Below, piece after piece: positions 7,603-57,723 of a DNA stretch of 64,000 nucleotides. The translations under genes were made by a program, and so were the position numbers. Where the stretch lies: the IMG/VR virus record IMGVR_UViG_3300044617_000226, positions 14,989-78,988 of that record; one strand, 5' to 3'. Positions within the stretch are counted from its first letter, which is position 1, and each line of letters begins with the position of its first letter. The notes under the pieces were generated by a model, which made no database searches, had not been told where the DNA came from, and saw nothing but the letters and a program-made list of their open reading frames with translations. This DNA is from a virus.

Positions 7603-8826
7603 TCACTCCTTAGTTAATAGACTTGCATCTACCGTCTTGTTATTGTATAGTTTATCTATCGCGGATAGCTCACCGCAGGTCTCTACACAGAATAACAACC
7701 TACCGTCTTCTACTGGTTTACCTTCCCATCCATCTAAAAAGAATTTCTGAAAGTATGGACCCTTCAATATATCAAGCACATTATTTTTACGCAAATCAAA
7801 TTTATCTAAACCCAATTTATTGATCATATCATTAAATTGCCAACGACTATATGTTGTATTATTTGCGCCGAACACGCCACCTAAGAAACAGCAAGGTAAT
7901 AGATAGCCGCCAGCTGAAACATATAATTCTTGTGTATAACTATTAACTGATTTACACTTTATGCACGATTTCTGAGCGAGGTCTTTGCTGAATTCTGTTA
8001 GTACAGGAATATGTTTATTAACATATCCATCAGTTATTCCAGGGCTATGATGTCCTACCGGTATATTTGTTCTCTCGCCTGTGAAATTTACAGGATAAAC
8101 GCTATATTCATATCTTTGATTTTTATCATAGACATTCATGCCTATAGGCTTGCCTTGATATTCACCAAACCCCATTGGATTCTTAGTGACAAAATGAAAG
8201 CCTAACTTGTTTGCTAATTTTTTAGCCTCTTCTACTTGATGCTGGTTATGTTCGAATACTAAAAACTCCCATATACCGAATGCACCTGTACTAGCATATG
8301 CTTCCATGTTAGCGAACAATCTATCCCATTTAACTCCCCTGCGATATATGTGATTAGTATCTTCTAATCCATCAACGCTAAACACTACTGCAGGAAATGC
8401 GAAACTATCATAGTTACTTTCTTTCAATGATTTCCATGCGCTATTATCTCTGTTAGGAACACTTGCAAAAAACTCGCCAACTTGCTTCCAATACGCGGCA
8501 TTTCTCATACCACCATTAGTTCTAACCTGCTGTGCTATATTCTTCTCGCTGTTAGATTGAAAATATTCAAGTATGGGTAGTAAGTCCAATGCTACGCCCG
8601 GATCTCCTAAGTTACCGCAGAAATTGATAGCAGAGATATTTTTAGCAAATCCCGGCGGAAAGAATGTTTTGATATCATCGATAGAAAGTTCGGTCAATAC
8701 TAGATCAGGAACTACTGGTCCGCCGCCGAAATTTCTGCTACAGGCCGGACAACTAGCATTGCATCTAGTAGTCAATTCAATGTGTAGTCTTCCAATTTTA
8801 GATAAGTTGTACATGTTTTCTCTCAA
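7603..8826 (-). CDS. Radical SAM protein with C-terminal SPASM/Twitch-like Cys motif
   Basis: CNASCPAC near the N-terminus, FCGNLGDP, TNGG, FSVDG; C-terminal CIKC...LLPCC...CVETC. Confidence 0.9.
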   Translation of the reverse strand: MRENMYNLSKIGRLHIELTTRCNASCPACSRNFGGGPVVPDLVLTELSIDDIKTFFPPGFAKNISAINFCGNLGDPGVALDLLPILEYFQSNSEKNIAQQVRTNGGMRNAAYWKQVGEFFASVPNRDNSAWKSLKESNYDSFAFPAVVFSVDGLEDTNHIYRRGVKWDRLFANMEAYASTGAFGIWEFLVFEHNQHQVEEAKKLANKLGFHFVTKNPMGFGEYQGKPIGMNVYDKNQRYEYSVYPVNFTGERTNIPVGHHSPGITDGYVNKHIPVLTEFSKDLAQKSCIKCKSVNSYTQELYVSAGGYLLPCCFLGGVFGANNTTYSRWQFNDMINKLGLDKFDLRKNNVLDILKGPYFQKFFLDGWEGKPVEDGRLLFCVETCGELSAIDKLYNNKTVDASLLTKE

Positions 8827-8831
8827 TTCAA

Positions 8832-9572
8832 TTACTTATAACTTTTTATAGTAGGTTCTATCACTCTATTAAAATATATCTGATGTCCTAACTCATTAAC
8901 ATGATTGTCTATTGACCTATACGGTTTTTGTGTTTCAAGACTATGATCATGTTTACCTGAAAAATCATAATTTCTTATGTCAACCATCTGCTGAAATTTC
9001 ATAGGTTTTAGTCCTTTTACAAAATCATATGTCGTGAATTCATAATTTCTTCTACAAAAAGACCAACGAAAATTGTATTTTTGTAGTGTTGCTAGTGCAT
9101 AGGCTGATAATAATGTCATCATTCCTAAATTTTGACCTATACTTTCATGGTACATGTATTTTATATATTGTCTTACTGCATCTCCCATACCATGATCATT
9201 ATGGCTTCCTGCCATCGACAATACATAACTGGCAATTTGTTTTTCGTTATGTGAGGCAATTTCTATTCTATCAGGATTAGTAAGTTGAAAAAATATTAAT
9301 TGTGACTCTTTCTCATCCGTGTCATTTTCACTGTATACTAAAAAATCTCTTAGTATCTGTTGATTTGATCTACCTGGGTTGGCATAATTTAAAACTTTCA
9401 ACTCGGGATATTTTTTCTGTAGTAATGAGCCCCAGCAATATTCGCTAGGTGAATTTTCCGGTAGTACAGGTCCCACCATCGATTGAGTACTAGGATCATA
9501 GTGATATATACGGTCAGGACATCCATGACCATAATTAAAACTATCTCCGAAGATGACCACTTTATTAATCAT
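8832..9572 (-). CDS. SGNH/GDSL-fold protein
   Basis: IFGDSFNYG, NYANPGRSN, C-terminal DNHVNELGH. Confidence 0.75.
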   Translation of the reverse strand: MINKVVIFGDSFNYGHGCPDRIYHYDPSTQSMVGPVLPENSPSEYCWGSLLQKKYPELKVLNYANPGRSNQQILRDFLVYSENDTDEKESQLIFFQLTNPDRIEIASHNEKQIASYVLSMAGSHNDHGMGDAVRQYIKYMYHESIGQNLGMMTLLSAYALATLQKYNFRWSFCRRNYEFTTYDFVKGLKPMKFQQMVDIRNYDFSGKHDHSLETQKPYRSIDNHVNELGHQIYFNRVIEPTIKSYK

Positions 9573-10354
9573 AAACTTTTAATCATTCCAATTTCTCGCT
9601 GAAAATCATATCCCATATCAACATAGCGTTGGGTTATATCTTTACTATATATAAAATCCCCATCTTTAAATAGATCCATCAACACATTTTTACCTTCAGC
9701 GAATCTATCCAATATGATATCAGCAAGTATCCTATTATTTTCATCTGTAAGATGTGTGCTACGAACATCTCCATATCCGCCCATATCCATTTCTTTTTCT
9801 GTGACTTTAAACAAATTATACAGGCAATCACTATGTCTATTGGAAAAATCTAATTCATTGCCGGCGTTATCGATAAAAGGTAATATATTTACTAATTTTA
9901 TATTCTTGTCTTTACATATTTGATTAACATCATCAAACATCTTTTGCTGTACCCAAAAATTGAACTGAAAATCACATAAAAATTTATAACCTAATAATAT
10001 CTGTACGATCTCAGACTGTTCTTCTGCATTGAATTTTTTAAATGTAGATGTTTTGTAGAATGTTTCAACATCTGGAAATCCACTAACTACAGCGTATCGG
10101 TGAGGCATAGTCTGTATCCTATGCACAAATGACCAACAAAATACAATATGGTCAAATCTATGATGATGATCTTTAAAACAAGTAAAAGCATGATTACTAG
10201 CACTACCGCTTAAACCATATGATGATACTTTATGTCCTTTAGACACGATATGCGCCATCCAACTTTCATCTGTTTTAAACTTTGACAATGGTGCAGATAT
10301 ATTTCTATCCGCATAACTGTCGCCGAATACTCCTATATGCAACTTATCCATCAT
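9569..10354 (-). CDS. SGNH/GDSL-fold protein
   Basis: VFGDSYAD, YGLSGSA, DVRSTHLTDENN. Confidence 0.7.
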   Translation of the reverse strand: MMDKLHIGVFGDSYADRNISAPLSKFKTDESWMAHIVSKGHKVSSYGLSGSASNHAFTCFKDHHHRFDHIVFCWSFVHRIQTMPHRYAVVSGFPDVETFYKTSTFKKFNAEEQSEIVQILLGYKFLCDFQFNFWVQQKMFDDVNQICKDKNIKLVNILPFIDNAGNELDFSNRHSDCLYNLFKVTEKEMDMGGYGDVRSTHLTDENNRILADIILDRFAEGKNVLMDLFKDGDFIYSKDITQRYVDMGYDFQREIGMIKSL

Positions 10355-11604
10355 TTAAGTCCTATATATTTTGCTAGATTGTCAGGTTTATTTCTGCGCT
10401 TAGTATACTGCTCAAAAAAGATGTCACTATCTCTACGCATCTCTGCCTGATTCTCTCTTATGAATCCTTCATCCAAAAACTTGATCAATCTATTACAATG
10501 CTCATGTTCTATAGGTAATAGATCATCTTTGATAGTTTCATAAAATTTTGTATATTTGTTAATATAGAAATCTCGCTCACTTCTAGTCAAACAAGCAAAA
10601 CCTTGAAACTCTGGTTTATCTACCATGTTGATAGATATATAAGGCTTGACTTTAGTTCGCTTTCTGATATCAATTATATCCAGATACATCTGATCTAATG
10701 ACTGTAATGCTATCGCGCTTACTGTGGTACTGATGCTAAACTCTTTGACTGTGCTATTACCCAGTCTTTCAATGTTCGTTAACCATTCACTATAAACCAT
10801 ACCTTCCCGTATGAACTCGGCAGTCTCACCCGCACTTTCATTGCTGATGTTCATGCGTAAGTTATTCAATCCTTTGATTTTTTCAAAGAATCTATCCATT
10901 ACTACTGGTTTCTGACATAGATTGCTGTGTATCACAGTCTCAATATTAGGATTGATTCTAGTCATCATAGCGAACAACTGAAACACTTCTTCATGCATCA
11001 ATGGTTCACCTCCGCTTACACGGATGCTCTCAAGTCCGGACATGACTGTCTCAAACCACTTCCAGAACAATTCCATGTGAGGTGGCTTGATCATCTCGTT
11101 CAATTCAGCCATGTCTTTCTGATAATGTCTACGATCATCAGTTTTGATGTTTGTATAGACACCATTGACTCTTATATCATTTATCCAACTAGTGCTAAAT
11201 TGTGGACTGCAATAACTACAGGCTAAGTTACAAGTATTATTGAATGCTAACTCTAATGCTTTGGGCTTGAATACGAAATTAGGATTCTTATAATCTTCAG
11301 CAGTCAAATGATCTTTGAAACTTAAACTCTTTCTAGTTCTGTCGCTAGTCAATCCTAGATTTTCATAGCGCCAGCAACTATCACATGCAGGGGGTTGTTC
11401 GCCTGCTAACATTCTTTTTTGTTGGTCGCGCTTTTCTGCTGGATTATAGAATGTATCTACTGTGTCACCTACTTGCAAGAAAGGGGTATAATGGCAACTG
11501 GCGATCTTGCCGCTATATACCCATATACTTGCCTCATGAAACTTAGCCAAACAGAATGTGGGGCTAGTCTCATCTCTGATTTTTAATAACTTATTCAATT
11601 CCAT
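10351..11604 (-). CDS. N-terminal Twitch radical SAM protein, subtype A
   Basis: FCLAKF...SCHYTP...CDSCW N-domain; CNLACSYC; SGGEP. Confidence 0.9.
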   Translation of the reverse strand: MELNKLLKIRDETSPTFCLAKFHEASIWVYSGKIASCHYTPFLQVGDTVDTFYNPAEKRDQQKRMLAGEQPPACDSCWRYENLGLTSDRTRKSLSFKDHLTAEDYKNPNFVFKPKALELAFNNTCNLACSYCSPQFSTSWINDIRVNGVYTNIKTDDRRHYQKDMAELNEMIKPPHMELFWKWFETVMSGLESIRVSGGEPLMHEEVFQLFAMMTRINPNIETVIHSNLCQKPVVMDRFFEKIKGLNNLRMNISNESAGETAEFIREGMVYSEWLTNIERLGNSTVKEFSISTTVSAIALQSLDQMYLDIIDIRKRTKVKPYISINMVDKPEFQGFACLTRSERDFYINKYTKFYETIKDDLLPIEHEHCNRLIKFLDEGFIRENQAEMRRDSDIFFEQYTKRRNKPDNLAKYIGLK

Positions 11605-12935
11605 CAGTAGTCAAACTCATCGTCTAATTTGTTATGTATCAGATAGTTTTTAATGTTGTTGTGTTCTGGATAGATAGTGAAAAAATCTTCTTCCCTTATC
11701 TCGTCTAATTTCTTCGTGATCTTGCTGAACATCTTTAAAGATTCATGCATGTTAGGAGCACGATCTAATTCAGAGTACATGAACTTTATAGCATTATCAT
11801 ATCTGTGTAATGTATTACTTATTGTGGAATATTGATCCTGGAACTTTTTGAGCCATTCCATCTGATCTAAAAACAATAATTCGATCTCACGCTTTTTCCA
11901 CTCGGGTATGTTTTTAAGGTTATAATATGGTGGAGTATCTAATGGGTTAATCATTATATCGTCTGGTTTTATCAGACCCAATTCCACCCACTCTTTATGA
12001 AATTCTACTAGATTATGCGCATTAGGCCAACTCAATGTGAAGCCGATATTAAAGTCTACATGAGGACATTCTTGCATCAACAACTTTCTGTTCTCAACTA
12101 TAGTAGCCCATTCTGTTCCCTTGCGCCAGTATTCGCCCTTGCTATAACTTCCATCTAAACTAGCATTGATTTGTACTCTAGTAAACTTCTTCCAGTACTC
12201 TAATACATTGTCGAAACCCTTGAGTTTGAAGTTTGAGAAGTTAGTATTATATTGTAATGATACATCTAGTTTATCTAGTTCTATCAATCTGTCAAGCATC
12301 TTATAATGATCTTCTTGCATCAATGGTTCCCCGCCTGCGAAATAGATTAATTCTGCTGTTGCTAGGTGGGGTAATATCTCTTCTAGTGCATGAACCTCAG
12401 TCTTACCGGCAAACTGAAAACCATTATCAGTATCCTTGAACTTATCGCTTGGATATAACTTTCTATTATCTCCTACCCAACTTGTGCTATAATAAGGCCC
12501 GCATGTTCTACATCGTAGATTACATAAATTGTTGAATCTAACATCGATATAAAAAAGTTTATGCTCTGCAAGTGATCCGTCAGGTCTAGTATTTGCTACG
12601 ATGTCTTGCACTACCTTGTTGTCTTTGAAGAACCTGTCATTGTATGCATTATAAAACTGATCACCTATAGTATGACGATTATTGCATATCGCACAGTGGG
12701 GGTGTTTTTCCCCGCGCAAAAACTGCAATCGCATGTTTCTTGTCTCTTCGTTATTCCATATTTCTGCTAATGAGTTTTCTTTCAAATTGCCGATCTGTTG
12801 CTGGTTCTCATAACCATAAACACAGCAAGGTTTGACATCACCTCTAGTTCCTACATGTTGATGTACCCATGGAAAGATGCAAAAAGTCTTGCTAGTCTTT
12901 GCCATCTCTAATGGATTAAATTCTTGATCGCTCAT
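11604..12935 (-). CDS. N-terminal Twitch radical SAM protein, subtype B
   Basis: CIFPW...KPCC...CAIC; CNLRCRTC; AGGEP; YNTN; SLDG. Confidence 0.9.
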   Translation of the reverse strand: MSDQEFNPLEMAKTSKTFCIFPWVHQHVGTRGDVKPCCVYGYENQQQIGNLKENSLAEIWNNEETRNMRLQFLRGEKHPHCAICNNRHTIGDQFYNAYNDRFFKDNKVVQDIVANTRPDGSLAEHKLFYIDVRFNNLCNLRCRTCGPYYSTSWVGDNRKLYPSDKFKDTDNGFQFAGKTEVHALEEILPHLATAELIYFAGGEPLMQEDHYKMLDRLIELDKLDVSLQYNTNFSNFKLKGFDNVLEYWKKFTRVQINASLDGSYSKGEYWRKGTEWATIVENRKLLMQECPHVDFNIGFTLSWPNAHNLVEFHKEWVELGLIKPDDIMINPLDTPPYYNLKNIPEWKKREIELLFLDQMEWLKKFQDQYSTISNTLHRYDNAIKFMYSELDRAPNMHESLKMFSKITKKLDEIREEDFFTIYPEHNNIKNYLIHNKLDDEFDY

Positions 12936-14226
12936 ATTCTATAAAATCCCTGTGTAATTCTGGGAAGAGGATCTTGAAATCTTCATTCCTTATAGTATCT
13001 AGTTTTTGTGTCTCTTTGAAAAATAATGGAATCAATTTAGATTCGTCTTTGCTATTCATCATAGTCATAGCATTTTTCCAAACATCTACATAATGATAGT
13101 AATCGTAATTCTTTACTTGTGTCTGATCTAGAAACTCTAGGTGAGCCAATATTTTTTCTGATACTCTTTGTTTTGTCTTAGGAGGTAATATAGTAGTCTG
13201 CATCCATATAGGTGCATGTAGCACATTCAAGTTAAAGTTGAATTTGTTTCCATTATTGTTAGTGAAAATATCACTCTCGCACATATGTCTGTGTAAGTCT
13301 ATGGCTGCTTCACAATTAAAGATGCTGTATACTGCGCTGACTCCATAATTAGCATTTGGTGCTTGTTCTTTGCTAGCCTTGATCCAATCTTGTGCAAGTT
13401 GCCAGTCAAAGCCTTTGCGTATATATTCTCCTTGCAGGCCCATTGCATCGATGCTGCCTATTATGAATACATTATAGAACTTGTCTAGTAATTTGAATGC
13501 GTTATAATGTTTTAATTCATAGACGCTTAAGTTGGTATTATATCTGATCTTTATATTAGTTTTACCCATGTCTATCAATAGTTGCAAGAATTCATAATGT
13601 TCTTCTTGCATCATGGGCTCCCCGCCACTGAAATGTATCTCTGTATATTCATCACACATATTGACCATATCGATAAGATCAGTAGTCATATGTGGAATTT
13701 TTGTATTAGTCAATAAACTTGCTTTGACGGGTAATCCCATCTTCATCACTTCAACCGCCCAACTTGTGCTAAGACCTGGGCCGCAACTACGACATTTGAA
13801 ATTGCAAAGACTGTTGAATATGATATCTATGGTACCTAACTTTATATTTTTCACACTGCCGTCGGCATTTGTTTGTTCAACTATATCTTTAAATTTATTA
13901 TAACCATTAAAATTGGTATGATCCGGATAATCACGATAACGCTTATTGAATATATTGCGCATACTATCGATGCCGCTATCTTCTTCTTTCCAGCATCGTG
14001 AACATGAATCCGGTTTCTTACCTTCTAAGAAATCTTTCCTCAATTTATTCCATTGATCACCATGAAATATATCTGTGATTTTATTGTCATTCCAATTACC
14101 CAACTGGTGCTGATGATTGTGGCTATAATAACAGCATGGCATCACCTTACCATCAGGTTCGGTGTGTATCTGTAGCCAGGGAAGACTGCAAAAATGCTCG
14201 GGAAAGTTGTCGTTTTCTAATGCCAT
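12916..14226 (-). CDS. N-terminal Twitch radical SAM protein, subtype B
   Basis: CSLPW...MPCC...CSRCW; CNFKCRSC; SGGEP; YNTN; SIDA. Confidence 0.9.
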   Translation of the reverse strand: MALENDNFPEHFCSLPWLQIHTEPDGKVMPCCYYSHNHQHQLGNWNDNKITDIFHGDQWNKLRKDFLEGKKPDSCSRCWKEEDSGIDSMRNIFNKRYRDYPDHTNFNGYNKFKDIVEQTNADGSVKNIKLGTIDIIFNSLCNFKCRSCGPGLSTSWAVEVMKMGLPVKASLLTNTKIPHMTTDLIDMVNMCDEYTEIHFSGGEPMMQEEHYEFLQLLIDMGKTNIKIRYNTNLSVYELKHYNAFKLLDKFYNVFIIGSIDAMGLQGEYIRKGFDWQLAQDWIKASKEQAPNANYGVSAVYSIFNCEAAIDLHRHMCESDIFTNNNGNKFNFNLNVLHAPIWMQTTILPPKTKQRVSEKILAHLEFLDQTQVKNYDYYHYVDVWKNAMTMMNSKDESKLIPLFFKETQKLDTIRNEDFKILFPELHRDFIEYERSRI

Positions 14227-14232
14227 GATGTA

Positions 14233-15525
14233 TTAGTAAATCCATCCATCAAGTTCGGGGAACACATTAGTAAAGTTTCTATCTCTACGATTGTCATATT
14301 CAGTAGTGAACTTCTTGAACTGATCTGTTCTCCATTCACGCTCAGTATCATTCATAGTTGACTTGCGGGCTTTCCAGAAATCATAGACCATAGCCCATGT
14401 TTCTTTCTCTACGCTCTTTATCAAACTATCATTTTCTTTCATGAAGTTGTTAGTATCTTCAAAATAACTATCAGCACTATCTGGTAGTATGCGCAAATCG
14501 AACTGTTTAGGGTCAACTAATCGTGCGCAGTTGAACATGATATCGATACCATCTTTACGAAACTCAATAACTTTCTTAATAAATGTCTTAAAGTTGAAAA
14601 CGCTCAACAATCCAAATGTGACCATGATACGAATAGGTACATGGAATGTTGTGCTGACTTTGCGAACAGTATCTTCCCACTGTGCTACATCTAGACCATC
14701 ACGGATATACTCTGCTTGTGGTCCCCATGTATCCATGCTTGTATATACTTCAAGACCCTTGATAGTTTTAGCATTCAATAATGTCGTAGCCTTCTCAAAG
14801 AACATCTTTAGATTCTTCTCAGGTACGCATAAGTTGGTGTTGATAACTAATGTCAAGTTAGGATTGTGGTTCTGTGCTACGAAATCTAATAGTTTCATGA
14901 AGTTGCGTGTGGCGAGTGGTTCACCACCGGTGATTCTTAGATAACGCAAATCTTTGTATGCGTCGGGTAACCACTTCCAGAATGCATCGATATATGGGTT
15001 ATCATCTTCTGGCAACATGTCGTGCATCTTGTCTTTATGCACAGTAGGATCTTCGATAGGATAACTACCGAATTTACGAACTTCATGCTCCCATCGTGAA
15101 CTCTGTCCCGGACTGCAATAACTACATGCAAAGTTACAAGTGTTTGCGAAACTAATCTCTAAGTAGCTAGGATTGATCGGCTTGTCATAAGGTGCATTCA
15201 ATATTTCTGCTCTGCGCTCAATAGCCCAGGACTCGTTAGTAAAACGCTTTCTATCGCTGATGACATCGGGGTTAATCGCTTCCATGTCAAAACAGTAGTA
15301 GCACTCTTTAGGCTTCTCACCATTCATCATCTGACGGCGTTGCTCAATCTTATGTCCAGTATTATGTAATGCTGAAGGGTCTTTGTCAGTCTCTTCACGC
15401 TTCCAACGATGTATCGGTGGATGATAACAACTGTGGTTCTCGCCCATACCGAAATGCATAGTGACCATAAGCCATTTTGCCGCACAAAAACTGTTTTGAA
15501 TCTTAATTGGAATTTCTACACTCAT
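14233..15525 (-). CDS. N-terminal Twitch radical SAM protein, subtype A
   Basis: CAAKW...SCYHPP...CYYC; CNFACSYC; TGGEP. Confidence 0.9.
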   Translation of the reverse strand: MSVEIPIKIQNSFCAAKWLMVTMHFGMGENHSCYHPPIHRWKREETDKDPSALHNTGHKIEQRRQMMNGEKPKECYYCFDMEAINPDVISDRKRFTNESWAIERRAEILNAPYDKPINPSYLEISFANTCNFACSYCSPGQSSRWEHEVRKFGSYPIEDPTVHKDKMHDMLPEDDNPYIDAFWKWLPDAYKDLRYLRITGGEPLATRNFMKLLDFVAQNHNPNLTLVINTNLCVPEKNLKMFFEKATTLLNAKTIKGLEVYTSMDTWGPQAEYIRDGLDVAQWEDTVRKVSTTFHVPIRIMVTFGLLSVFNFKTFIKKVIEFRKDGIDIMFNCARLVDPKQFDLRILPDSADSYFEDTNNFMKENDSLIKSVEKETWAMVYDFWKARKSTMNDTEREWRTDQFKKFTTEYDNRRDRNFTNVFPELDGWIY

Positions 15526-16700
15526 AATATTTCACCTAATTCTGGTATATAATCTTTGTAACTTAAAGTTCTTGCCTTGTCTACTGCGTTGATGAACTGA
15601 CTTGCCTTCGTCAATAACTTGGGATCATGCTCTATCATTAATTTAGCATACAATTCATTACGCTGCCATTCATGCAATTTATCTTTATAATAATCCCTGA
15701 TCTTGTCTTTATAACTCTCAGGTAATGCGGCGAGACTTAGATAGTCTGGATACAATACATAATTGTGATGAGGTATCTTGTTATAATTTGTTTCTAGCCA
15801 AGTATTTAACACATCCAAATTCAATATGTTTAGTATGCTTACAGTCTGTGTGACATGCCAATATACATTATCTACTTTGTTTAATTTCTCTATGCTAGTG
15901 ACAGTTTCATCCCATTGTGTAGGATATCTGATATAATAGTTTCTAATATCGTAATCATCGATGCTTGCATTGACTGTGACTTTCATGAATGACTTCCACA
16001 ATTCTATCAGATTATCAGGAATGTCCATCATGTTTAGGCTATATACAAGATGTACTTTTTGTGCTGTACCATTATCGATTAGATTTTGCAGATAGCGGAA
16101 GTGTGCTTTGATCAATGTGGGTTCACCACCATTGATGTATATTTCTTCTACACCTTCGCTATACTTTGTCAACTCGTCATAGAACTCTGGATCTTCGAAC
16201 CACTTAAAGTTCTCTACGGGTCTTAGAACGAACCAAGGTAAGTCTTTGCTTATTTTCTTTTCGTCTGGATACCATTTGCTACTACTATAACTGTTACAAG
16301 TCAAGCAGGCATTATTACACACATTGCCTAAACGCAATTCGATATAACGATAATTAGGTCTCTTGATGAAAGATGTTTTCTCAAGTTGATCTATGATGTG
16401 TGCCCAGCGTTTGTTTTCGTACTGTCTTTTGCTTTCTAGTCCTGCATCTTCATCACGCCAGCATCCTTCACATTCGATAGGGCGTCTGCCGTCGATCATA
16501 TCTTGTCTTACTTTGATAAACTTATCGCTGTTGATGACATCATCGAGGCTGTCATTATCTAATGTAACAAGGCTGTTAGTACCTTGTTTCTTAGCCCAAC
16601 TAACTGCATCATTATGATTGCTACGGCAACAAAGGCTGACACCACCGTTAGGGTGTGTCGCTAGATGCATCCAAGGTAGCACACATAATGTTTTACTCAT
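15522..16700 (-). CDS. N-terminal Twitch radical SAM protein, subtype B
   Basis: CVLPW...SLCC...CEGCW; CNNACLTC; NGGEP. Confidence 0.9.
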   Translation of the reverse strand: MSKTLCVLPWMHLATHPNGGVSLCCRSNHNDAVSWAKKQGTNSLVTLDNDSLDDVINSDKFIKVRQDMIDGRRPIECEGCWRDEDAGLESKRQYENKRWAHIIDQLEKTSFIKRPNYRYIELRLGNVCNNACLTCNSYSSSKWYPDEKKISKDLPWFVLRPVENFKWFEDPEFYDELTKYSEGVEEIYINGGEPTLIKAHFRYLQNLIDNGTAQKVHLVYSLNMMDIPDNLIELWKSFMKVTVNASIDDYDIRNYYIRYPTQWDETVTSIEKLNKVDNVYWHVTQTVSILNILNLDVLNTWLETNYNKIPHHNYVLYPDYLSLAALPESYKDKIRDYYKDKLHEWQRNELYAKLMIEHDPKLLTKASQFINAVDKARTLSYKDYIPELGEIL

Positions 16701-18094
16701 ATCTTATCCCACCATTCTAACAATTTAGGATGACGGCTATAGATATCACGCAATGTTAATTTAGCCTCGCGTATCTGTTCTAGTCTATGAACCCAACCTT
16801 TACCGTTCTTAGCTGCCTGGCGGAATGTGTCGGGCCATTCTTCTTCGTGTGTTTTTCTAGTATATTTCAATGCTTCTAAGTTAGCGATCAAAGTACCATG
16901 ACGCCATTCATCTGCTTTAGGTCTGATATAATCAAGTATATCATCGCATACTTCATTCAGTACTTCTCTAGGCCAACTAGTTGGACTCCACATGATGTCA
17001 GGATGGAACGCGAATGTGATCTTTGTCTCAATCTTTACGCCCAACTCATTACTCAAATCAAACAAATCTTTCAATGCGAACATACCGGGTGCTGTGATAG
17101 TCAAATCTAATACCATCTTTTGTCTGCCACCGGGCAATTCACAACCACGCTTGAAGTTTTCTAACCAACGATCCCACTTGATACCTGTGCGTATATATTC
17201 AACGATTTCACCCGTGCCGTCAATACTTGCGCACATCATCCAATCTTTGAAATGCGGTAGATAATCAAATAAGTTCTTATCACCAAATTGAACGCGGCTT
17301 AAGTTACTATTGTATCGCATGAAACAATTCTTTGCGCTACCATTCTTTAACATTTCTTCCAATGTCCACCAATGCACATCATACATCAATGGCTCGCCAC
17401 CTACCCAGTACATTTCTTCAACGATACCGCGACTTACTGCATCACGAAACTCTGGCTCGACAACCTCAGTCTGGAACTTCTCCATAGCAGTCTTGATCTC
17501 TGGGACCATGAATGGTTGATTCTTGGGAGTCCACATATTGTTGATCTTCTTTTCAGATTCCCATGAACTGCTTAACTGCTCACCGCACATGCGGCATTTG
17601 AAATTACATAGATTGCTGAAACGGTAATCGAATGATATAGGTTCCATAGTGGTATGACCTGTATCATCGGTCTTGTCGAATGCCTCTTGTATCTTATGCT
17701 TGAATAGTGTGCCTGTGAACCATCCGCGATAACTGTGACCTTCCATCAATAGATTCTTGTTACAGACATCGCATTGTGGAATCTCTTCTCCGCGCATTAA
17801 CTTTACACGGATATCACGCATATATGGACTGTTCCAATGTTCTTTCAATGACATTGGTCTATATTTGTCTAGTGATGTCTCACTATCCTTTACTGCGCCA
17901 TAACGCTCATCATTACTGCTGTCGATATATTGCTTTTGAAAACTATGTTCTTCACGGCTAGCACAACATAATCTGCGTTCGCTTTGTGGACTTATGTATG
18001 TGTGCGTCCATGGAGCCATGCAAAAGACTTTGTTTTCGCTGTCTTTTGCTGGCTTCGCATCATCACCCCATATCGGAATTATCTTATTTGTCAT
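16697..18094 (-). CDS. N-terminal Twitch radical SAM protein, subtype B
   Basis: CMAPW...RLCC...CDVC; CNFKCRMC; VGGEP; SIDG. Confidence 0.9.
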   Translation of the reverse strand: MTNKIIPIWGDDAKPAKDSENKVFCMAPWTHTYISPQSERRLCCASREEHSFQKQYIDSSNDERYGAVKDSETSLDKYRPMSLKEHWNSPYMRDIRVKLMRGEEIPQCDVCNKNLLMEGHSYRGWFTGTLFKHKIQEAFDKTDDTGHTTMEPISFDYRFSNLCNFKCRMCGEQLSSSWESEKKINNMWTPKNQPFMVPEIKTAMEKFQTEVVEPEFRDAVSRGIVEEMYWVGGEPLMYDVHWWTLEEMLKNGSAKNCFMRYNSNLSRVQFGDKNLFDYLPHFKDWMMCASIDGTGEIVEYIRTGIKWDRWLENFKRGCELPGGRQKMVLDLTITAPGMFALKDLFDLSNELGVKIETKITFAFHPDIMWSPTSWPREVLNEVCDDILDYIRPKADEWRHGTLIANLEALKYTRKTHEEEWPDTFRQAAKNGKGWVHRLEQIREAKLTLRDIYSRHPKLLEWWDKI

Positions 18095-19625
18095 TTTCTA
18101 AGTCAGGGTTGACGAACACTTCCTTGCTAGGATCTTCAGGTGGATGCTCTGGTACTAAGTCCATACCTTCACGATAGTTACCTGTGATGATCTCTGCACT
18201 AGTAGGTACTTCAGTATCGATACTGTCGAACCAATCAACGAATTCCTGGGGGAAAGTCTCACGGAAATTCTTTGCACGGCGTACATCATACTGACTATAG
18301 AACTGTTTGAAGTCTCGTTTATTCTGCTCAGGATCCTTCACATTCTTGTGAGGAGTCTTGATGACGTCAAGATAGTCAATCAATCTTTGAGTCTGCTCAC
18401 GCTCAATAGCAGTCAACAATGGTTCACCGTTTGTAGTCTTCTCGTTGAGATGAACATAATGATTCAACCAATGTTGTAATTTTTCGCTATACTTCTGACG
18501 AATCTCCATAGGCAACATCGCGCAACTCTGGAAACTTGGGAAACGCAAGATGTTCAATGACATAGTTGGATATGTAGAATCATGCTTACGCTTGAAGTTC
18601 ATGATCTCTGTCATGAATTCTGTGATGCTCGACAAGCAGAGGCTATTGATAGTCATCATGATATGTGTGCGCTTGACATTGCCTTCTGTGTGCAATCTTT
18701 CTAGGTTGCGCAACCATATATCCCAATTGAATCCATCGCGGATATACTCAGCATGTTTGCCGGTCGCTTCACAGCTAGTATAAACTTCTAGCCAAGGAAC
18801 ATAATGGCTCAATTCGATAAAACGATCCATGATGTCATCTTTAGGTACGAGGTTACTATTGATAGCATAACGCATGACCTTGCCGTCTGGACGATTCTTT
18901 ACACGCTCTTGATTTGCTTTGAACCATTCGAACAACTTCCATACACCGGCAGCCATTAATGGCTCACCGCCAGTGATACGAATCTCTTCTAGGTTATCAG
19001 CAAGACCATTCTCTTGTTCCCACCAGCGCCAGAACGCTTGTGTGTATGGGTTCACATCATCAGGCAGTGGCTTGGCATGATCTGCTTTGTTGATGAAGTG
19101 ACTACGGGCGTCACCGTTGATGTTACGATATGGTCCGAACTTGACGATATCCTTTACCCATGTCGTGCTGAAACTTGGATTGCAGTATGAACATGCGAAA
19201 TTACAAGTTCTATCGAATGCGATCTCAAGTGTACGCAACATAGTATTTTCTTGCCAGTCTGCTTTGGCAGTCTGTGCGATATACTCTTCTTGGTGTACAG
19301 CAGTCTTATATACACGGTCTGAGATAGATCCGCGACCTAGGTCTTCGATCTTCCAACAATATTCACATTCTTGTGGACGAGTACCTTCCTGCATCATTTT
19401 ACGCATCAATTTCTTGTGCGGAGTATTATGAATAGCAGTTGGGTTATCTTTCAACTCATTAGCATCGATCTGATGTCCTAATGGGTGGTGACAACTTGCT
19501 GTCTGTCCATTGCCTAACCAAATAGTAGCGTTTAGCCACTTGGCTGCACAATAACTATCGCTAACGATGTCAATGACTCGCTTCTTATAGTCTGCGTATG
19601 TTTCTTCCGGTCTTTTACCTGCCAT
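18084..19625 (-). CDS. N-terminal Twitch radical SAM protein, subtype A
   Basis: CAAKW...SCHHP...CEYCW; CNFACSYC; TGGEP; AGGA Shine-Dalgarno. Confidence 0.9.
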   Translation of the reverse strand: MAGKRPEETYADYKKRVIDIVSDSYCAAKWLNATIWLGNGQTASCHHPLGHQIDANELKDNPTAIHNTPHKKLMRKMMQEGTRPQECEYCWKIEDLGRGSISDRVYKTAVHQEEYIAQTAKADWQENTMLRTLEIAFDRTCNFACSYCNPSFSTTWVKDIVKFGPYRNINGDARSHFINKADHAKPLPDDVNPYTQAFWRWWEQENGLADNLEEIRITGGEPLMAAGVWKLFEWFKANQERVKNRPDGKVMRYAINSNLVPKDDIMDRFIELSHYVPWLEVYTSCEATGKHAEYIRDGFNWDIWLRNLERLHTEGNVKRTHIMMTINSLCLSSITEFMTEIMNFKRKHDSTYPTMSLNILRFPSFQSCAMLPMEIRQKYSEKLQHWLNHYVHLNEKTTNGEPLLTAIEREQTQRLIDYLDVIKTPHKNVKDPEQNKRDFKQFYSQYDVRRAKNFRETFPQEFVDWFDSIDTEVPTSAEIITGNYREGMDLVPEHPPEDPSKEVFVNPDLENDK

Positions 19626-19632
19626 ATTATCC

Positions 19633-21198
19633 TCAATTTTGTGTATATGCTTTCACACACTCTTTCCAATAGTTCTTAAACTCAGGAAAGGTGAGTAAAA
19701 AGTTAGTGCCCCGTCTTTTGTCAAACTCTTTAATGAAAAGATAGAAATTTCTTTTATTTATAGACTTTTGATTTTGGGGTAAAGATTCCTTCATCACAGC
19801 CAAATCTCGCTTGACTTTAAGAATCTCATAGGGCTTGAACCCCTCGAATGTCTCAAGGTAATCATCACCCTGTACATTATCTTCCATGAACTTTAAGCAA
19901 CGCTCTACTTCTTCTATCTCTTTCTCCGTCGCATTGGTCACGCTGAACCAAGGAGGGAAACGCAGTATAGGGATGTCAAAGAACACTCTTTGGAACTTCT
20001 TTTGTGTGTAAACTTTATGCACGATTCCATGCTCTTTTTCTGTTTCAGTTTGCTCGGGCGCTATAGTGAATTCTGTCTGCGCACGACCACCGAATTCACG
20101 GCGTAGTTCCAATATCATCTCTAAGAACTTGTATAGGCTAGGGATGCTCAACAAGTTAAAAGTATTGATGAAACTCACAGTGGTATACTTTGTTTCACGC
20201 AAGAAAGTCCTGATATTATTCAGCATCCTATCAAATTCTAGGCCTGTACGCATATATTCTGCTTGTGGGCCTACACCGTCTAGTGATACGAATAACCAGA
20301 AATGCTTGAAGCCTTTGTCTACATACCAGTGATTTCCGCTGAACTCATTGAAGTTTTCCTTGTCTTCATATGTACGCAACTCTTCGATAGCCTTGACCTT
20401 CTCAAGGAACTTGTCGAATAGTTTCTGATCGGGCGGGCACATGTTGCTTGTGATGCTCAACTCAAGTTGACCATGTGGATTATTGTTCACATAGTCTAAT
20501 ACCTTGAATGTGTTCTTATCCATGAGTGGCTCACCACCTGTCATGCGGAACACACGCAACTTTCTATAGATAGTAGGCCACCATTTCCAGAATGCCTCGA
20601 CATAAGGATTTTCCTTCTGTGCTACTCTGATGGGCATGAGTCCCTTTTGTTCTAATGATGGTAGATCATTATGAACATAATTATCTAATACGAATCCGCC
20701 ATACTTTCGTACTTCTTCTTCCCATGATGTTGACAAATGTGGGCTACAATACATACACTTGAAATTACATGCTTGATTAAAGTTCACTTCAACATAGCGG
20801 GGAGTCACATCATAGTCCCAAGGATTACCGGTGACTTCATCAAATGTAGGTGCGTTCCACCATTCACTACTGCGATAATGACGATCACTCAAATGTCCTT
20901 TGGGGTCTTCACTTTGTGCGTCTTCTACTCGCCAGCAATATGCGCAGCCATCAGGGCGTTTGCCCTCAATCATCATCTTGCGCTCTGCTATCTTCTGCGG
21001 CGTGTTGTGTAGTGCGCTTGGTTGCTTTTCTAGTAATTCGACAGGTATCTTGTGTGTAGGTGGATGATAACAACTCTGTGTCAATCCTTGCGGTAAGTGT
21101 AAACTAACCTGTTGCCATTTTGCTAGGCATAAAGAAGGACTGACCGCATTTAAGCGGTCTCGCATGTCCCTAGCAAATTGATCGTATTCTCCTGCCAT
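19633..21198 (-). CDS. N-terminal Twitch radical SAM protein, subtype A
   Basis: CLAKW...SCYHPP...CAYCW; CNFKCMYC; TGGEP; SLDG. Confidence 0.9.
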   Translation of the reverse strand: MAGEYDQFARDMRDRLNAVSPSLCLAKWQQVSLHLPQGLTQSCYHPPTHKIPVELLEKQPSALHNTPQKIAERKMMIEGKRPDGCAYCWRVEDAQSEDPKGHLSDRHYRSSEWWNAPTFDEVTGNPWDYDVTPRYVEVNFNQACNFKCMYCSPHLSTSWEEEVRKYGGFVLDNYVHNDLPSLEQKGLMPIRVAQKENPYVEAFWKWWPTIYRKLRVFRMTGGEPLMDKNTFKVLDYVNNNPHGQLELSITSNMCPPDQKLFDKFLEKVKAIEELRTYEDKENFNEFSGNHWYVDKGFKHFWLFVSLDGVGPQAEYMRTGLEFDRMLNNIRTFLRETKYTTVSFINTFNLLSIPSLYKFLEMILELRREFGGRAQTEFTIAPEQTETEKEHGIVHKVYTQKKFQRVFFDIPILRFPPWFSVTNATEKEIEEVERCLKFMEDNVQGDDYLETFEGFKPYEILKVKRDLAVMKESLPQNQKSINKRNFYLFIKEFDKRRGTNFLLTFPEFKNYWKECVKAYTQN

Positions 21199-22190
21199 TA
21201 CCAGCCTTCGATCCTTCTGATCACATCCATCTCTGTGACAAGCGGTCCTAGATTATGCTTATCACTATTATAATGACGCTTGAAGAATTTGCTTTGCTCA
21301 GGTGACAATGTACAGATAGGCAAGCCTAACTTATTTTCTAAGTGCGCGCCTGCATCTTCCATAGCGACTTTAGGATCTTTACCTTCAGCATATTCTTTCC
21401 ATAACTCAGGATAGTTATCGAACCACTGAACATTTGTGTGATCCCATTCACTCAACATAGTTAAGTATGTTCCCAATCTTGCGCCATACATAGCCCAATA
21501 ACCGTTCTCAACATCACTACCAACATTCTGCCAGATAGTGAGATTATTCAAGTTTCTGCTAGCCACTGTCTCTTTGAATTCTTCTACTGTAGGTACAGCG
21601 CCTTTATTCAAGCACATCTTGACACCTTCACGAAAGCCTGCACGCCATGCTTGAAAAGGTGTATAGTTAGGATATGTTGTTGAATAGCAATCATACATAG
21701 CCCAATAGAGGCTGTCTTTGCTATCTAAACAGAAATCAGCGATTCGTGATACATCGCCTTCAGTCTGATGCTCATGTGTCTTCATCTCACGCACATAAGT
21801 CTTAGTCCAACTGCTCATGCCACCATTGCCATAACGCAGTCCATTGATAGCATTGATCGCTTTCCAGCGAAACTGTGCTAATTTGAATTTAGGATCTTTG
21901 TCTGTGAAGTCTAACTGAATGTTGAAGAAACTCTCGTCAGGCATATTGTCGCCGTCGATCAATATGAATCTTTCTGTGTCGCTTGCTTCACCTGCGGCTT
22001 TGTGTGCGGCATCGCTACCCTTGACACCGTCTACGCGCTTTGCCCAAGGAACCATGTTTTGAATTTGTAGCCAGAATTCTTCTTTCTGTGGCTCATCATA
22101 ACTTAGGTAAATGCAGTCGAGTTCTGCAACATCTACAATATCATAACTCATGTGTATGTAACTTCCATTTTTGTTGATCTGCGTAGTCAC
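21198..22190 (-). CDS. Putative GT-A-fold glycosyltransferase
   Basis: N-terminal strand DCIYLSYDEP; GVKGSDAAHKAA; hydrophobic strand plus DxD (FILIDGDN); QAWRAGFRE resembles the QxxRW-type helix. True start may be the internal Met (MSYDIV). Confidence 0.65.
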   Translation of the reverse strand: MTTQINKNGSYIHMSYDIVDVAELDCIYLSYDEPQKEEFWLQIQNMVPWAKRVDGVKGSDAAHKAAGEASDTERFILIDGDNMPDESFFNIQLDFTDKDPKFKLAQFRWKAINAINGLRYGNGGMSSWTKTYVREMKTHEHQTEGDVSRIADFCLDSKDSLYWAMYDCYSTTYPNYTPFQAWRAGFREGVKMCLNKGAVPTVEEFKETVASRNLNNLTIWQNVGSDVENGYWAMYGARLGTYLTMLSEWDHTNVQWFDNYPELWKEYAEGKDPKVAMEDAGAHLENKLGLPICTLSPEQSKFFKRHYNSDKHNLGPLVTEMDVIRRIEGW

Positions 22191-22497
22191 TATTTACTAC
22201 CACGCTGACATCTGTTTTTGCAGTAGGTTGACCTTCATCGTCTGGCTTGAGTTTAGAGTAAGTCATACCTGGAATGATCTTTTTGATCTGACCATCAACT
22301 ACTTTGATATCGTAGCGCATCTCGGCAAAAGTATTCTTATCGATTATGATATACTTGCCTTCTGGTTTTTCGCAGGTATAAAAGTCTACACTACCATCGT
22401 CTTTGTAGTATAGTCTAAATTCAACGGGTTCTGGTACAGTCTCTTCAGCCACTAGATATTCTACCCCGTTTATCTCTATTACTTTAAGTCTTTCCAT
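22141..22497 (-). CDS. Hypothetical protein (118 aa)
   Basis: Co-oriented ORF overlapping both neighbours; no motif recognised. Confidence 0.75.
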   Translation of the reverse strand: MERLKVIEINGVEYLVAEETVPEPVEFRLYYKDDGSVDFYTCEKPEGKYIIIDKNTFAEMRYDIKVVDGQIKKIIPGMTYSKLKPDDEGQPTAKTDVSVVVNSDYADQQKWKLHTHEL

Positions 22498-24416: not shown

Positions 24417-24424
24417 TATTTATA
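24417..24424 (-). promoter_or_regulatory. T4-type late promoter TATAAATA
   Basis: Exact gp55 consensus on the minus strand, in an intergenic gap 18 bp upstream of the 24398 start. Confidence 0.8.
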
Positions 24425-57696: not shown

Positions 57697-57723
57697 TTAC
57701 GCAACACAATTACAAGAGGAACT

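What the first reader, a model, noticed from the sequence alone, without database searches (positions are those of the whole stretch)
10351..21198. Eight tandem radical SAMs with the Twitch domain at the N-terminus
Seen: eight consecutive genes, each with a Cys-rich auxiliary-cluster domain before CxxxCxxC, GGEP, and mostly a shared C-terminal D..R...F...(F/Y)PE helix motif. Known: SPASM/Twitch domains are normally C-terminal. I recall an N-terminal-Twitch family of unknown function (NCBIfam N_Twi_rSAM; to be verified). Keeping eight diverged, intact, Fe-S-costly paralogs implies distinct sequential reactions (inference).
Basis: partly seen in the sequence, partly recalled or inferred. Interest (0 to 1): 0.85.

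Follow-up and report, generated by a model that had tools for sequence, protein, structure and literature searches.

The report
Phage array of N-twitch radical SAMs
A widespread, uncultured giant lake phage carries eight old, intact and different copies of a catalogued but never-tested iron-sulfur "radical SAM" enzyme in one late operon. The operon also holds sugar-transferring, esterase-like and carbamoyl-adding genes, so the enzymes most likely edit a sugar structure by chemistry that is still unknown.

Summary
Eight adjacent, mostly overlapping minus-strand genes (10351-21198) all match NCBIfam NF033640 (N_Twi_rSAM) at 244-353 bits against a cut-off of 170. All eight keep CxxxCxxC, GGEP and four N-terminal cysteines. 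Those cysteines align with the four cluster-binding cysteines of BtrN's C-terminal Twitch domain.

- **Paralogs:** they are 19-34% identical and fall into two deep types (A: R1, R4, R7, R8; B: R2, R3, R5, R6). Most have orthologues in other phage contigs. dN/dS is 0.02-0.07 for seven of the eight.
- **Source:** a T4-like freshwater phage fragment, about 23% of the genome.
- **Related phages:** 81 related phage loci carry 2-11 copies, with a fixed R8-R7-R6 core and a variable tail.
- **Sugar context:** three GT-A-like proteins usually precede the array, and 18 loci have a UDP-glucose-dehydrogenase-type gene inside it. Bacterial relatives sit in glycan clusters, and one is fused to a GT2 domain.

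Best reading (about 0.5): a late-expressed, multi-step radical sugar-tailoring cassette, probably for a virion glycan. Neither the substrate nor any reaction is shown. Modification of proteins or of DNA/nucleotides remains possible.

This scan has reported the same kind of array before on other phage DNA. I found no paper on the family.

The parts
24417..24424 (-). TATAAATA, a T4-type late-promoter-like octamer in the 56-bp gap upstream of the first gene of the operon
   Evidence: The position fits, and a gp55-type late sigma factor is encoded at 57688-58623. The count of this octamer in the window is not above chance (4 found, 8.2 expected).
24093..24398 (-). 101-aa ORF with no family match; first gene of the unit
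23284..24096 (-). 270-aa GT8-like putative glycosyltransferase (family A4) with a DxD motif
   Evidence: Homologues in 61 of 81 viral loci. Paralogous to A3 (hhalign 99.7%).
22484..23380 (-). 298-aa GT8-like putative glycosyltransferase (family A3)
   Evidence: Found in 62 of 81 loci. Its profile weakly matches glycogenin (GT8), E 0.002-0.06. The Pfam GT8 model itself finds nothing.
22141..22497 (-). 118-aa ORF, unknown
21198..22190 (-). 330-aa protein (family A2) with an N-terminal GT-A / nucleotide-diphospho-sugar-transferase-like fold and an invariant D79-x-D81 (DGD)
   Evidence: Found in 64 of 81 loci. AF2 model pLDDT 75.9. VIA Z 8-10 to B4GALNT1, CHSY3, a Leptospira GT, STIV A197, WrtF and PBCV-1 A64R, and also to nucleotidyltransferases.
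19633..21198 (-). R8, N_Twi radical SAM, type A, 521 aa; core member
   Evidence: NF033640 289 bits. Orthologues in all 81 loci at 33-97% identity. dN/dS 0.024.
18084..19625 (-). R7, N_Twi radical SAM, type A, 513 aa; core member
   Evidence: 296 bits. At least 228 viral relatives. 49% identical to a gene of Ralstonia jumbo phage RsoM2USA. dN/dS 0.020.
16697..18094 (-). R6, N_Twi radical SAM, type B, 465 aa; core member
   Evidence: 312 bits. Orthologues in most loci. dN/dS 0.03-0.04.
15522..16700 (-). R5, N_Twi radical SAM, type B, 392 aa
   Evidence: 341 bits. More than 120 clusters at 61% identity or more. AF2 model pLDDT 93.8. dN/dS 0.03-0.07.
14233..15525 (-). R4, N_Twi radical SAM, type A (sister lineage of R8), 430 aa
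   Evidence: 295 bits. Tree. dN/dS 0.02-0.04.
12916..14226 (-). R3, N_Twi radical SAM, type B, 436 aa; variable tail
   Evidence: 342 bits. Only 59-64% identical where R4-R8 are 88-98% identical.
11604..12935 (-). R2, N_Twi radical SAM, type B, 443 aa; variable tail
   Evidence: 353 bits. dN/dS 0.04 among relatives.
10351..11604 (-). R1, N_Twi radical SAM, type A (sister lineage of R7), 417 aa
   Evidence: 244 bits. dN/dS 0.05 among relatives.
9569..10354 (-). 261-aa SGNH-like protein (FGDS motif), putative
   Evidence: Read from the sequence only. No Pfam hit.
8832..9572 (-). 246-aa SGNH/GDSL-like esterase or acyltransferase, putative
   Evidence: Lipase_GDSL E 1.2e-4, just under the cut-off. 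GDS and DxxH motifs are visible.
7603..8826 (-). 407-aa radical SAM with the usual order: CxxxCxxC at residue 22 and a C-terminal Twitch/SPASM-like cysteine motif
   Evidence: Homologues in 18 loci.
6640..7491 (-). 283-aa SGNH-like protein (GCS motif), putative
   Evidence: Read from the sequence only. Homologues in 13 loci.
5162..6643 (-). 493-aa NodU/CmcH-type carbamoyltransferase
   Evidence: Carbam_trans_N and Carbam_trans_C, E 1e-36 and 3e-49. Found in 17 viral loci and next to N_Twi genes in 7 bacterial loci.
3..5153 (-). C-terminal 1717 aa of a 2048-aa repeat protein, last visible gene of the unit; candidate acceptor or fibre
   Evidence: A homologue at about 40% identity sits in the same position in L085.

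Best explanation
The eight genes are true members of the uncharacterised N_Twi_rSAM family. These are radical SAM enzymes in which a one-cluster Twitch domain, homologous to BtrN's, precedes the catalytic barrel instead of following it.

They form the middle of one long transcription unit, probably late, inside the baseplate/fibre module of a T4-like jumbo freshwater phage.

My reading is that the unit is a carbohydrate-building and carbohydrate-editing cassette that works in four steps:
1. Three GT-A-like transferases assemble or attach sugars.
2. Each N_Twi enzyme uses a 5'-deoxyadenosyl radical to abstract a hydrogen from a sugar or nucleotide-sugar. The Twitch cluster serves as electron conduit. 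Different paralogs perform different steps, for example epimerisation, oxidation or dehydration, deoxygenation, or decarboxylation.
3. SGNH-like proteins and the carbamoyltransferase finish the product.
4. The product probably decorates a virion protein, perhaps one of the giant proteins encoded at either end.

**Shown:**
- family membership
- intact motifs
- antiquity and purifying selection of the paralogs
- conserved synteny with GT-like genes
- sugar-gene context in phages and bacteria

**Inferred:**
- the carbohydrate substrate
- the kinds of reaction
- sequential action of the paralogs
- the virion as target
- late timing of expression
For: **Family and cofactor sites**
- All eight match NF033640 above cut-off.
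- The invariant cysteines and GGEP are present in all eight.
- The N-terminal domain aligns with BtrN's Twitch domain, including all four cysteine ligands.
- A confident rSAM-barrel model for R5 has its nearest solved folds in BlsE, anSME, viperin, SkfB, SuiB and MoaA, all at Z about 12.

**Non-redundancy**
- Pairwise identity is 19-34%.
- Each paralog sits in a separate clade, and orthologues of R5, R6, R7 and R8 occur together in a Bacteriovoracaceae chromosome.
- dN/dS is 0.02-0.07.
- Natural fusions join an R2/R3-like unit to an R5-like unit, both with intact motifs.

**Sugar link**
- A2, A3 and A4 are present in 61-64 of 81 viral loci, directly upstream of R8.
- A3 weakly matches glycogenin, and A2 has a GT-A-like fold with a DxD motif.
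- A UDP-glucose/GDP-mannose-dehydrogenase-family gene (E 1e-18 to UGDH) lies inside the array span in 18 of 18 viral loci that have one.
- An NAD-dependent epimerase/dehydratase is encoded at the end of this same contig.
- One family member is a GT2-N_Twi fusion (P0209).
- A Crocinitomicaceae chromosome has three N_Twi genes among a UDP-sugar dehydrogenase, an epimerase, a carbamoyltransferase, a UbiA-GT4-GDSL fusion, a sulfotransferase, a GDSL protein and PhyH.
- The commonest Pfam families among 119 ORFs flanking N_Twi genes in 20 bacterial loci were PhyH (8), GT2 (5), methyltransferases (3), GDSL (3), DegT (2) and GT1 (2).

**Operon and timing**
- The genes are tightly packed on one strand, with no excess of promoter-like or terminator-like sites inside.
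- TATAAATA lies in the upstream gap, and gp55 and baseplate genes are nearby.
Against: - No member of the family has a tested function, and I found no paper on it.
- Structural neighbours acting on sugars or nucleotides (BlsE, viperin, MoaA, DesII) and those acting on peptides (anSME, SkfB, SuiB, CteB) are tied.
- Family members are also fused to TPR, Sel1 and ankyrin repeats, which usually bind proteins.
- The largest bacterial array (L105) and L086 have no recognisable sugar genes beside them.
- The GT assignments are weak: E 0.002, Z 8-10, and the Pfam GT8 model finds nothing.
- The contig has no canonical GT1, GT2, DegT or NDP-sugar pyrophosphorylase, though it covers only about 23% of the genome.
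- The neighbour tally has no background control.
- Late timing rests on one octamer whose count is not above chance.
Confidence: 0.5

Rival explanations
1. The enzymes modify proteins. Like RiPP/SPASM maturases or anSME, they would act on side chains or backbone of virion proteins, for example the 2048-aa repeat protein or the 6216-aa giant protein. Possible reactions are cross-links, epimerisation or oxidation. The GT-like and finishing enzymes would then act on the same protein.
For: - Peptide-modifying SPASM/Twitch enzymes (SkfB, anSME, SuiB, CteB, ChlB, EpeE) are among the nearest folds, at Z 11-12.7.
- The Twitch region also scores against the sactipeptide, dynobactin and WgkB maturase models.
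- Family members are fused to TPR, Sel1 and ankyrin repeats.
- The operon is framed by giant proteins of no known family, and the repeat protein keeps its position in a distant relative.
Against: - No RRE/PqqD-like domain and no leader-bearing small precursor was found.
- The array also occurs in bacterial glycan clusters and as a GT2 fusion.
- UGDH-type genes lie inside 18 phage arrays.
- The repeat protein was seen in only 5 of 81 loci, although the locus flanks limit that count.
Confidence: 0.2
2. The enzymes act on nucleotides or on phage DNA, as part of a base or nucleotide hypermodification pathway. The GT-like proteins and the carbamoyltransferase would decorate a modified base.
For: - The core domain matches viperin at E 2.5e-8 and MoaA models at up to 37 bits.
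- From my own knowledge: phage DNA hypermodification pathways are known to use glycosyltransferases and at least one radical SAM enzyme.
Against: - The genes lie on the structural strand between baseplate and fibre-like genes, behind a late-type promoter motif.
- Bacterial homologues sit in chromosomal glycan clusters.
- No hydroxymethylase or DNA-modification gene was seen in the 79 kb, which covers only a fragment of the genome.
Confidence: 0.1
3. The cassette makes a free or lipid-linked small molecule, or remodels the host envelope. The product would be a glycolipid, a secondary metabolite or a surface polysaccharide, rather than a virion decoration.
For: - A bacterial cluster includes a UbiA-GT-GDSL fusion, a sulfotransferase, PhyH and a WelO5-like oxygenase, which looks like natural-product or glycolipid tailoring.
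- PhyH is the commonest neighbour family.
Against: - There is no transporter, flippase or polymerase in the phage unit.
- Late expression in a lytic T4-like phage leaves little time for envelope remodelling to matter.
- The position inside the tail module fits a virion role better.
Confidence: 0.15

Closest known systems
NCBIfam NF033640, N_Twi_rSAM (twitch domain-containing radical SAM protein)
   Same: All eight proteins match end to end above the curated cut-off. They share the domain order, the cysteine pattern, GGEP and the C-terminal D-R-E-PE signature.
   Different: - The family has no characterised member.
- Type A paralogs (R1, R4, R7, R8) score lower, at 244-296 bits, and Pfam's SPASM model does not detect their Twitch domain.
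- In my sample type A appears only in multi-gene arrays (phages and Bdellovibrionota), while bacterial singletons are type B.
BtrN (butirosin 2-deoxy-scyllo-inosamine dehydrogenase), the founding Twitch-domain radical SAM enzyme
   Same: The Twitch domain is homologous at E 1e-7, with all four auxiliary-cluster cysteines aligned and the same C-x18-C ... C-x2-C spacing. BtrN's substrate is sugar-like.
   Different: In BtrN the Twitch domain is C-terminal, here it is N-terminal. The cores are only distantly related. The N_Twi proteins have an extra conserved C-terminal helical segment.
BlsE, DesII, viperin and MoaA (radical SAM enzymes acting on nucleoside-sugars, nucleotide-sugars or nucleotides)
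   Same: They are among the best structural and sequence neighbours of the core: BlsE Z 12.8, viperin E 2.5e-8, MoaA up to 37 bits. They offer models for radical chemistry on activated sugars.
   Different: Identity is at most 18%. Their Z-scores are tied with those of peptide maturases. None has an N-terminal Twitch domain, and none occurs in multi-paralog arrays.
SPASM/Twitch peptide maturases and anSME (SkfB, CteB, SuiB, ChlB, EpeE)
   Same: Comparable fold scores (Z 11-12.7) and auxiliary Fe-S domains of the same superfamily.
   Different: Most of them bind two auxiliary clusters in a C-terminal SPASM domain (SkfB has a Twitch domain), and they usually carry a peptide-recognition domain. 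They sit beside precursor peptides. None of this is seen here.
Virus-encoded virion glycosylation (chlorovirus PBCV-1 A64R; mycobacteriophage capsid and tail glycans, cited in PMC12619734)
   Same: The virus encodes its own GT-A-type transferases next to structural genes. A64R is among the fold matches of A2.
   Different: To my knowledge those systems have no radical SAM enzymes. Glycosylation of this phage's virion is not shown.

Membership tests
Radical SAM superfamily | CxxxCxxC motif that binds the SAM-cleaving [4Fe-4S] cluster | tested here: met
   C125, C129 and C132 are invariant in all eight. PF04055 matches at E 1e-9 to 3e-4, above Pfam's cut-off in five of the eight.
Radical SAM superfamily | GGEP-type SAM-binding motif and a partial TIM-barrel core | tested here: met
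   GGEP is invariant. The AF2 model of R5 (pLDDT 93.8) aligns with rSAM barrels at Z about 12.
Radical SAM superfamily | Reductive cleavage of SAM to a 5'-deoxyadenosyl radical | not testable with these tools
   Needs anaerobic reconstitution and an assay for 5'-deoxyadenosine.
NF033640 N_Twi_rSAM | Full-length match above the curated cut-off of 170 bits | tested here: met
   244, 353, 342, 295, 341, 312, 296 and 289 bits for R1 to R8. Re-found on the contig.
NF033640 N_Twi_rSAM | Twitch domain placed N-terminal to the radical SAM core | tested here: met
   The auxiliary cysteines lie at residues about 6-110 and CxxxCxxC at about 125-165. Pfam SPASM lies N-terminal to Radical_SAM in R2, R3, R5 and R6.
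Twitch domain (one auxiliary cluster) as opposed to SPASM (two clusters) | Homology to BtrN's Twitch domain with its four cysteine ligands, and no second CX2CX5CX3C motif | tested here: met
   The profile aligns with BtrN residues 162-261 at E 1e-7 with the four cysteines in register. Each N-terminal domain has only 4 (type A) or 5 (type B, 'CC') cysteines.
Twitch domain | Actual binding of an auxiliary [4Fe-4S] cluster | not testable with these tools
   Needs iron and sulfide quantification, and EPR or Mossbauer spectroscopy.
GT8 glycosyltransferases (for the 298-aa and 270-aa proteins) | Match to the GT8 model, or to glycogenin, with a DxD motif | tested here: inconclusive
   The A3 profile matches glycogenins at E 0.002-0.06 over about 100 residues, and the aligned DxD is invariant. 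PF01501 finds nothing on the contig at E <= 1. The A4 profile alone finds no solved relative, but A4 is a paralog of A3.
GT-A fold glycosyltransferases (for the 330-aa protein) | Rossmann-like GT-A fold with a DxD motif | tested here: inconclusive
   The model has pLDDT 75.9. Z is 8-10 to several GT-A enzymes over residues 18-176, but the same range matches nucleotidyltransferases. D79-x-D81 is invariant.
RiPP radical SAM maturase systems | A peptide-recognition (RRE/PqqD-like) domain and an adjacent precursor peptide | tested here: not met
   No such Pfam or NCBIfam domain occurs in R1-R8. No recognisable precursor gene is present. The only small ORF (7497-7598) has no cysteine and was not examined further.

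The most novel reading that the evidence does not exclude
The array is a modular radical 'sugar-editing line' of a kind not yet described. A fixed core (R8-R7-R6-R5) would make a rare sugar or glycan scaffold by several successive C-H activations. A fast-swapping tail (R1-R4 here, up to 11 or more copies in relatives) would diversify the phage's surface glycan between strains, much as tail-fibre tips vary. This would also mean that oxygen-sensitive Fe-S chemistry is run on a large scale by abundant phages of oxic lakes.
Probability: 0.25. Interest if true: 0.85.

Novelty: new variant of a known kind. Interest (0 to 1): 0.62.

Why it matters
Radical SAM enzymes that act on sugars are few, and each one found so far has revealed new chemistry. 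This is a large family: about 1,070 clusters at 50% identity score E <= 1e-30 against R2. It has a permuted Twitch domain and no tested member.

The family is concentrated in multi-copy arrays in abundant freshwater and marine jumbo phages, and in glycan clusters of Bacteroidota and Bdellovibrionota.

Finding the substrate would:
- open a new set of radical carbohydrate (or protein) modifications
- show what these phages display on their virions
- explain why a virus of oxic water keeps eight to thirteen costly Fe-S enzymes under strong purifying selection

Tried and rejected
- **Close DNA relatives among cultured phages:** none by megablast. By protein search, only Ralstonia phage RsoM2USA carries a close R7 homologue (49%), and its region is annotated as all 'hypothetical'. 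Vibrio phages K566, K567 and D479 match R2 at 23-24%.
- **Literature:** no paper names NF033640 or an N-terminal Twitch domain. Searches for radical SAM plus Twitch, epimerase and polysaccharide, and for radical SAM plus carbamoyltransferase, phage and glycan, gave nothing relevant. The 'moraphage' paper (PMC12619734) describes another jumbo lineage and does not mention radical SAM.
- **The search for related loci with the eight-paralog alignment:** failed because the alignment is too diverged. Single proteins worked.
- **The fetch from genomes:** busy, so the full 2048-aa protein was examined only as its window part.
- **Giant proteins:** Pfam on the 6216-aa protein found only an E1_FCCH-like domain. 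Pfam on the repeat protein found nothing meaningful, and the ESM Atlas search on the repeat protein gave no usable hit.
- **A2 and A4 profiles against PDB sequences:** nothing meaningful.
- **Complex prediction of R5 with R2,** prompted by natural R2-like/R5-like fusions: no verdict, score 0.00.
- **Sequencing runs:** no RNA holder listed, so expression was not tested.
- **Canonical sugar families on the contig:** GT1, GT2, GT8, DegT, NTP_transferase, GDSL_2 and UGDH Pfam models found nothing on the 79-kb fragment.
- **Promoter and terminator scans inside the unit:** equal to shuffled expectation.
- **Other ORFs of the contig:** L001 4002-5330 and 8738-11635 have no solved relative. L001 6066-7160 is an AAA+ (midasin/MoxR-like) ATPase.

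Full report
**What is there.** The window is bases 14989-78988 of a 78,988-base IMG/VR viral contig that CheckV rates about 23% complete, which implies a genome of roughly 340 kb.

The contig is T4-like. It encodes:
- a gp55-type late sigma factor
- SbcCD-type gp46/47 homologues
- a gp6-like baseplate wedge and a gp5-like hub
- a Peptidase_G2-containing structural protein

Near-identical DNA occurs in lake and freshwater metagenomes of well over ten studies.

On the minus strand, eight ORFs of 392-521 aa fill 10351-21198. They either overlap by 1-20 nt or are separated by 6-7 nt.

All eight match NCBIfam NF033640 (N_Twi_rSAM) over the full model at 244-353 bits, against a cut-off of 170. Fourteen control genomes have no match above the cut-off.

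The eight-way alignment has invariant C18, C37, C74, C77, then C125-x3-C129-x2-C132, GGEP, and a C-terminal R and P. Pfam places a SPASM-type domain before the Radical_SAM domain in four of them.

A profile of 56 family members aligns its first 90 positions with the C-terminal Twitch domain of BtrN at E 1e-7. BtrN's four auxiliary-cluster cysteines fall on the four conserved family cysteines, with the same C-x18-C spacing. Each N-terminal domain has only four or five cysteines and no second CX2CX5CX3C motif. It is therefore a one-cluster Twitch domain, not a two-cluster SPASM domain.

The same contig also holds three radical SAM genes with the usual order (CxxxCxxC first, a 'PCC'-type cysteine domain last). 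They lie at 7603-8826, at 62112-63125 and upstream of the window. The fragment therefore encodes eleven radical SAM genes.

**The paralogs are old, different and maintained.**
- Pairwise identity is 19-34%.
- A tree of 114 phage and bacterial members splits them into type A (R8 with R4; R7 with R1) and type B (R6; R5; R3 and R2). Each sits in its own well-supported clade with orthologues from other phages. This is a FastTree analysis with several long branches, so the deep order is unsure.
- Against the two closest relatives, dN/dS is 0.02-0.07 for R4-R8.
- Among relatives, dN/dS is 0.04-0.05 for R1 and R2 orthologues.
- R3 is saturated at synonymous sites but intact.
- Contigs from four independent lake samples show only substitutions and one compensated +1/-1 pair.

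The refuting condition of relaxed selection or decay is therefore not met.

**The array is a lineage trait with a core and a variable tail.** R7 has at least 228 relatives in IMG/VR, and R5 has over 120 clusters at 61% identity or more. In 81 fetched loci there are 2-11 family members each.

The usual order begins R8-R7-R6, often followed by an R5-like gene. R4 and R1-R3 are recognisable only in close relatives, and other relatives insert further paralogs. Where R4-R8 are 88-98% identical to the window, R2 and R3 are only about 65% identical. That pattern points to mosaic exchange at the tail.

The only cultured phage with a close homologue (49% to R7) is the 344-kb Ralstonia phage RsoM2USA.

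**Context in phages.** Directly upstream, three proteins are conserved in 61-64 of the 81 loci.
- Two are paralogs of each other (hhalign 99.7%). They weakly resemble glycogenin-type GT8 enzymes and have an invariant DxD motif.
- The third has a GT-A / nucleotide-sugar-transferase-like N-terminal fold (Z 8-10) and an invariant DGD motif.

Downstream lie two or three SGNH-like proteins, a conventional radical SAM, a clear NodU/CmcH-type carbamoyltransferase and a 2048-aa repeat protein. A homologue of that repeat protein keeps the same position in a distant relative.

Eighteen related loci carry a UDP-glucose/GDP-mannose-dehydrogenase-family gene (E 1e-18 to UGDH). In all eighteen it lies inside the span of the array. 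This contig ends in a truncated NAD-dependent epimerase/dehydratase gene on the same strand.

A TATAAATA octamer sits in the 56-bp gap before the first gene. Its count in the window is not above chance, and no internal promoter or terminator signal stands out. 'One late operon' is therefore likely but not shown.

**Context in bacteria.** An exhaustive search gives about 1,070 clusters at 50% identity with E <= 1e-30, and about 4,900 with E <= 1e-10.

Genome hits come mainly from Bdellovibrionota, Bacteroidota and Elusimicrobiota. Others come from Acidobacteriota, Gemmatimonadota, Verrucomicrobiota and Pseudomonadota. Arrays of up to eight occur there too. One of them, next to an Obg GTPase gene in a Bacteriovoracaceae contig, contains partners of the R8, R7, R6 and R5 clades.

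A Crocinitomicaceae chromosome has three members among:
- a UDP-sugar dehydrogenase
- an epimerase/dehydratase
- a carbamoyltransferase
- a UbiA-GT4-GDSL fusion
- a sulfotransferase
- a GDSL protein
- PhyH and a WelO5-like oxygenase

A carbamoyltransferase accompanies family members in seven bacterial loci. Over 119 flanking ORFs of 20 bacterial loci, the commonest Pfam families were PhyH, GT2, methyltransferases, GDSL, DegT and GT1. That tally has no background control.

Fusions occur in three forms:
- GT2 + N_Twi
- N_Twi + N_Twi, commonly an R2/R3-like unit followed by an R5-like unit, both with intact motifs
- N_Twi with TPR, Sel1 or ankyrin repeats

**What it most likely does.** The R5 model is confident (pLDDT 93.8). 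Its nearest solved folds are BlsE, anSME, viperin, SkfB, SuiB and MoaA, all near Z 12. Structure alone therefore cannot separate sugar or nucleotide substrates from peptide substrates.

Gene context tips the balance towards carbohydrate:
- GT-like genes fixed upstream
- nucleotide-sugar enzymes inside or beside the arrays
- the GT2 fusion
- bacterial glycan clusters
- the same finishing enzymes (SGNH, carbamoyltransferase) in phages and bacteria

I therefore read the unit as a late, multi-step radical sugar-tailoring cassette, probably for a virion glycan, at about 0.5.

| Rival reading | Confidence |
|---|---|
| Protein modification of the giant virion proteins | 0.2 |
| A free or lipid-linked product, or envelope remodelling | 0.15 |
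| Nucleotide or DNA modification | 0.1 |

The repeat-domain fusions, and the two bacterial arrays without sugar neighbours, are the main reasons for caution.

**Novelty.** The family is catalogued, so this is not a new kind of protein. I found no publication on it or on phage arrays of it. Earlier agents of this scan reported the same kind of array on other phage DNA and reached the same reading. My analysis was independent of theirs up to that point and agrees.

New here:
- the residue-level match to BtrN's Twitch ligands
- the core-plus-variable-tail structure, with the type order A-A-B-B-A-B-B-A running from R8 to R1
- UGDH-type genes inside 18 arrays
- R2-like/R5-like natural fusions
- the Bacteriovoracaceae chromosomal array with partners of four phage orthogroups

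Noticed in passing
window 7603-8826 (-), 62112-63125 (+); L001 12574-13605 (-): Three further radical SAM genes have the conventional order (CxxxCxxC at the N-terminus, a 'PCC ... CxxxC/CxxC' cysteine domain at the C-terminus). The 79-kb fragment therefore encodes eleven radical SAM genes. Both domain orders coexist, which is consistent with the N-twitch form arising by permutation.
   Followed up: partly
window 27193-45843 (-): A single 6216-aa ORF lies between the baseplate wedge gene and the cassette. It has no Pfam family except one E1_FCCH-like domain near residue 5800. Homologues were seen in 19 of 81 related loci.
   Followed up: partly
L085 and L092 (two contigs of a MAG labelled Haliscomenobacter sp.): These 'bacterial' contigs carry close homologues of the three GT-like genes (up to 59% identity), the carbamoyltransferase (60-62%) and five N_Twi genes each. 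L085 also carries homologues of phage structural genes and the repeat protein. They are probably phage contigs binned with the MAG, which is a weak hint at a Saprospiraceae host.
   Followed up: partly
L109, L118, L141, L146 and about a dozen more contigs of one Elusimicrobia MAG: One MAG holds dozens of N_Twi genes in tandem. In the four examined, long TPR arrays are fused to the N-terminus, giving proteins of 950-1130 aa. This is an extreme expansion of unknown meaning.
   Followed up: partly
window 11604-14226 versus L003, L005, L009, L012: R2 and R3 are only 59-69% identical to their counterparts in relatives whose R4-R8 are 71-98% identical. This suggests recombinational exchange of the array's tail.
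   Followed up: partly
window 11825-11830: In one lake metagenome a contig has a 1-base insertion and a 1-base deletion five bases apart inside R2. The frame is restored, so this is a natural compensated variant or an assembly artefact.
   Followed up: no
L001 6066-7160 (-): An AAA+ ATPase resembling midasin/MoxR domains (E 1e-9) is encoded downstream on the same strand.
   Followed up: no
window 7497-7598 (-): A 33-aa Lys/Arg-rich ORF ending in KRDPFIY lies in the only gap of 100 nt or more inside the unit.
   Followed up: no
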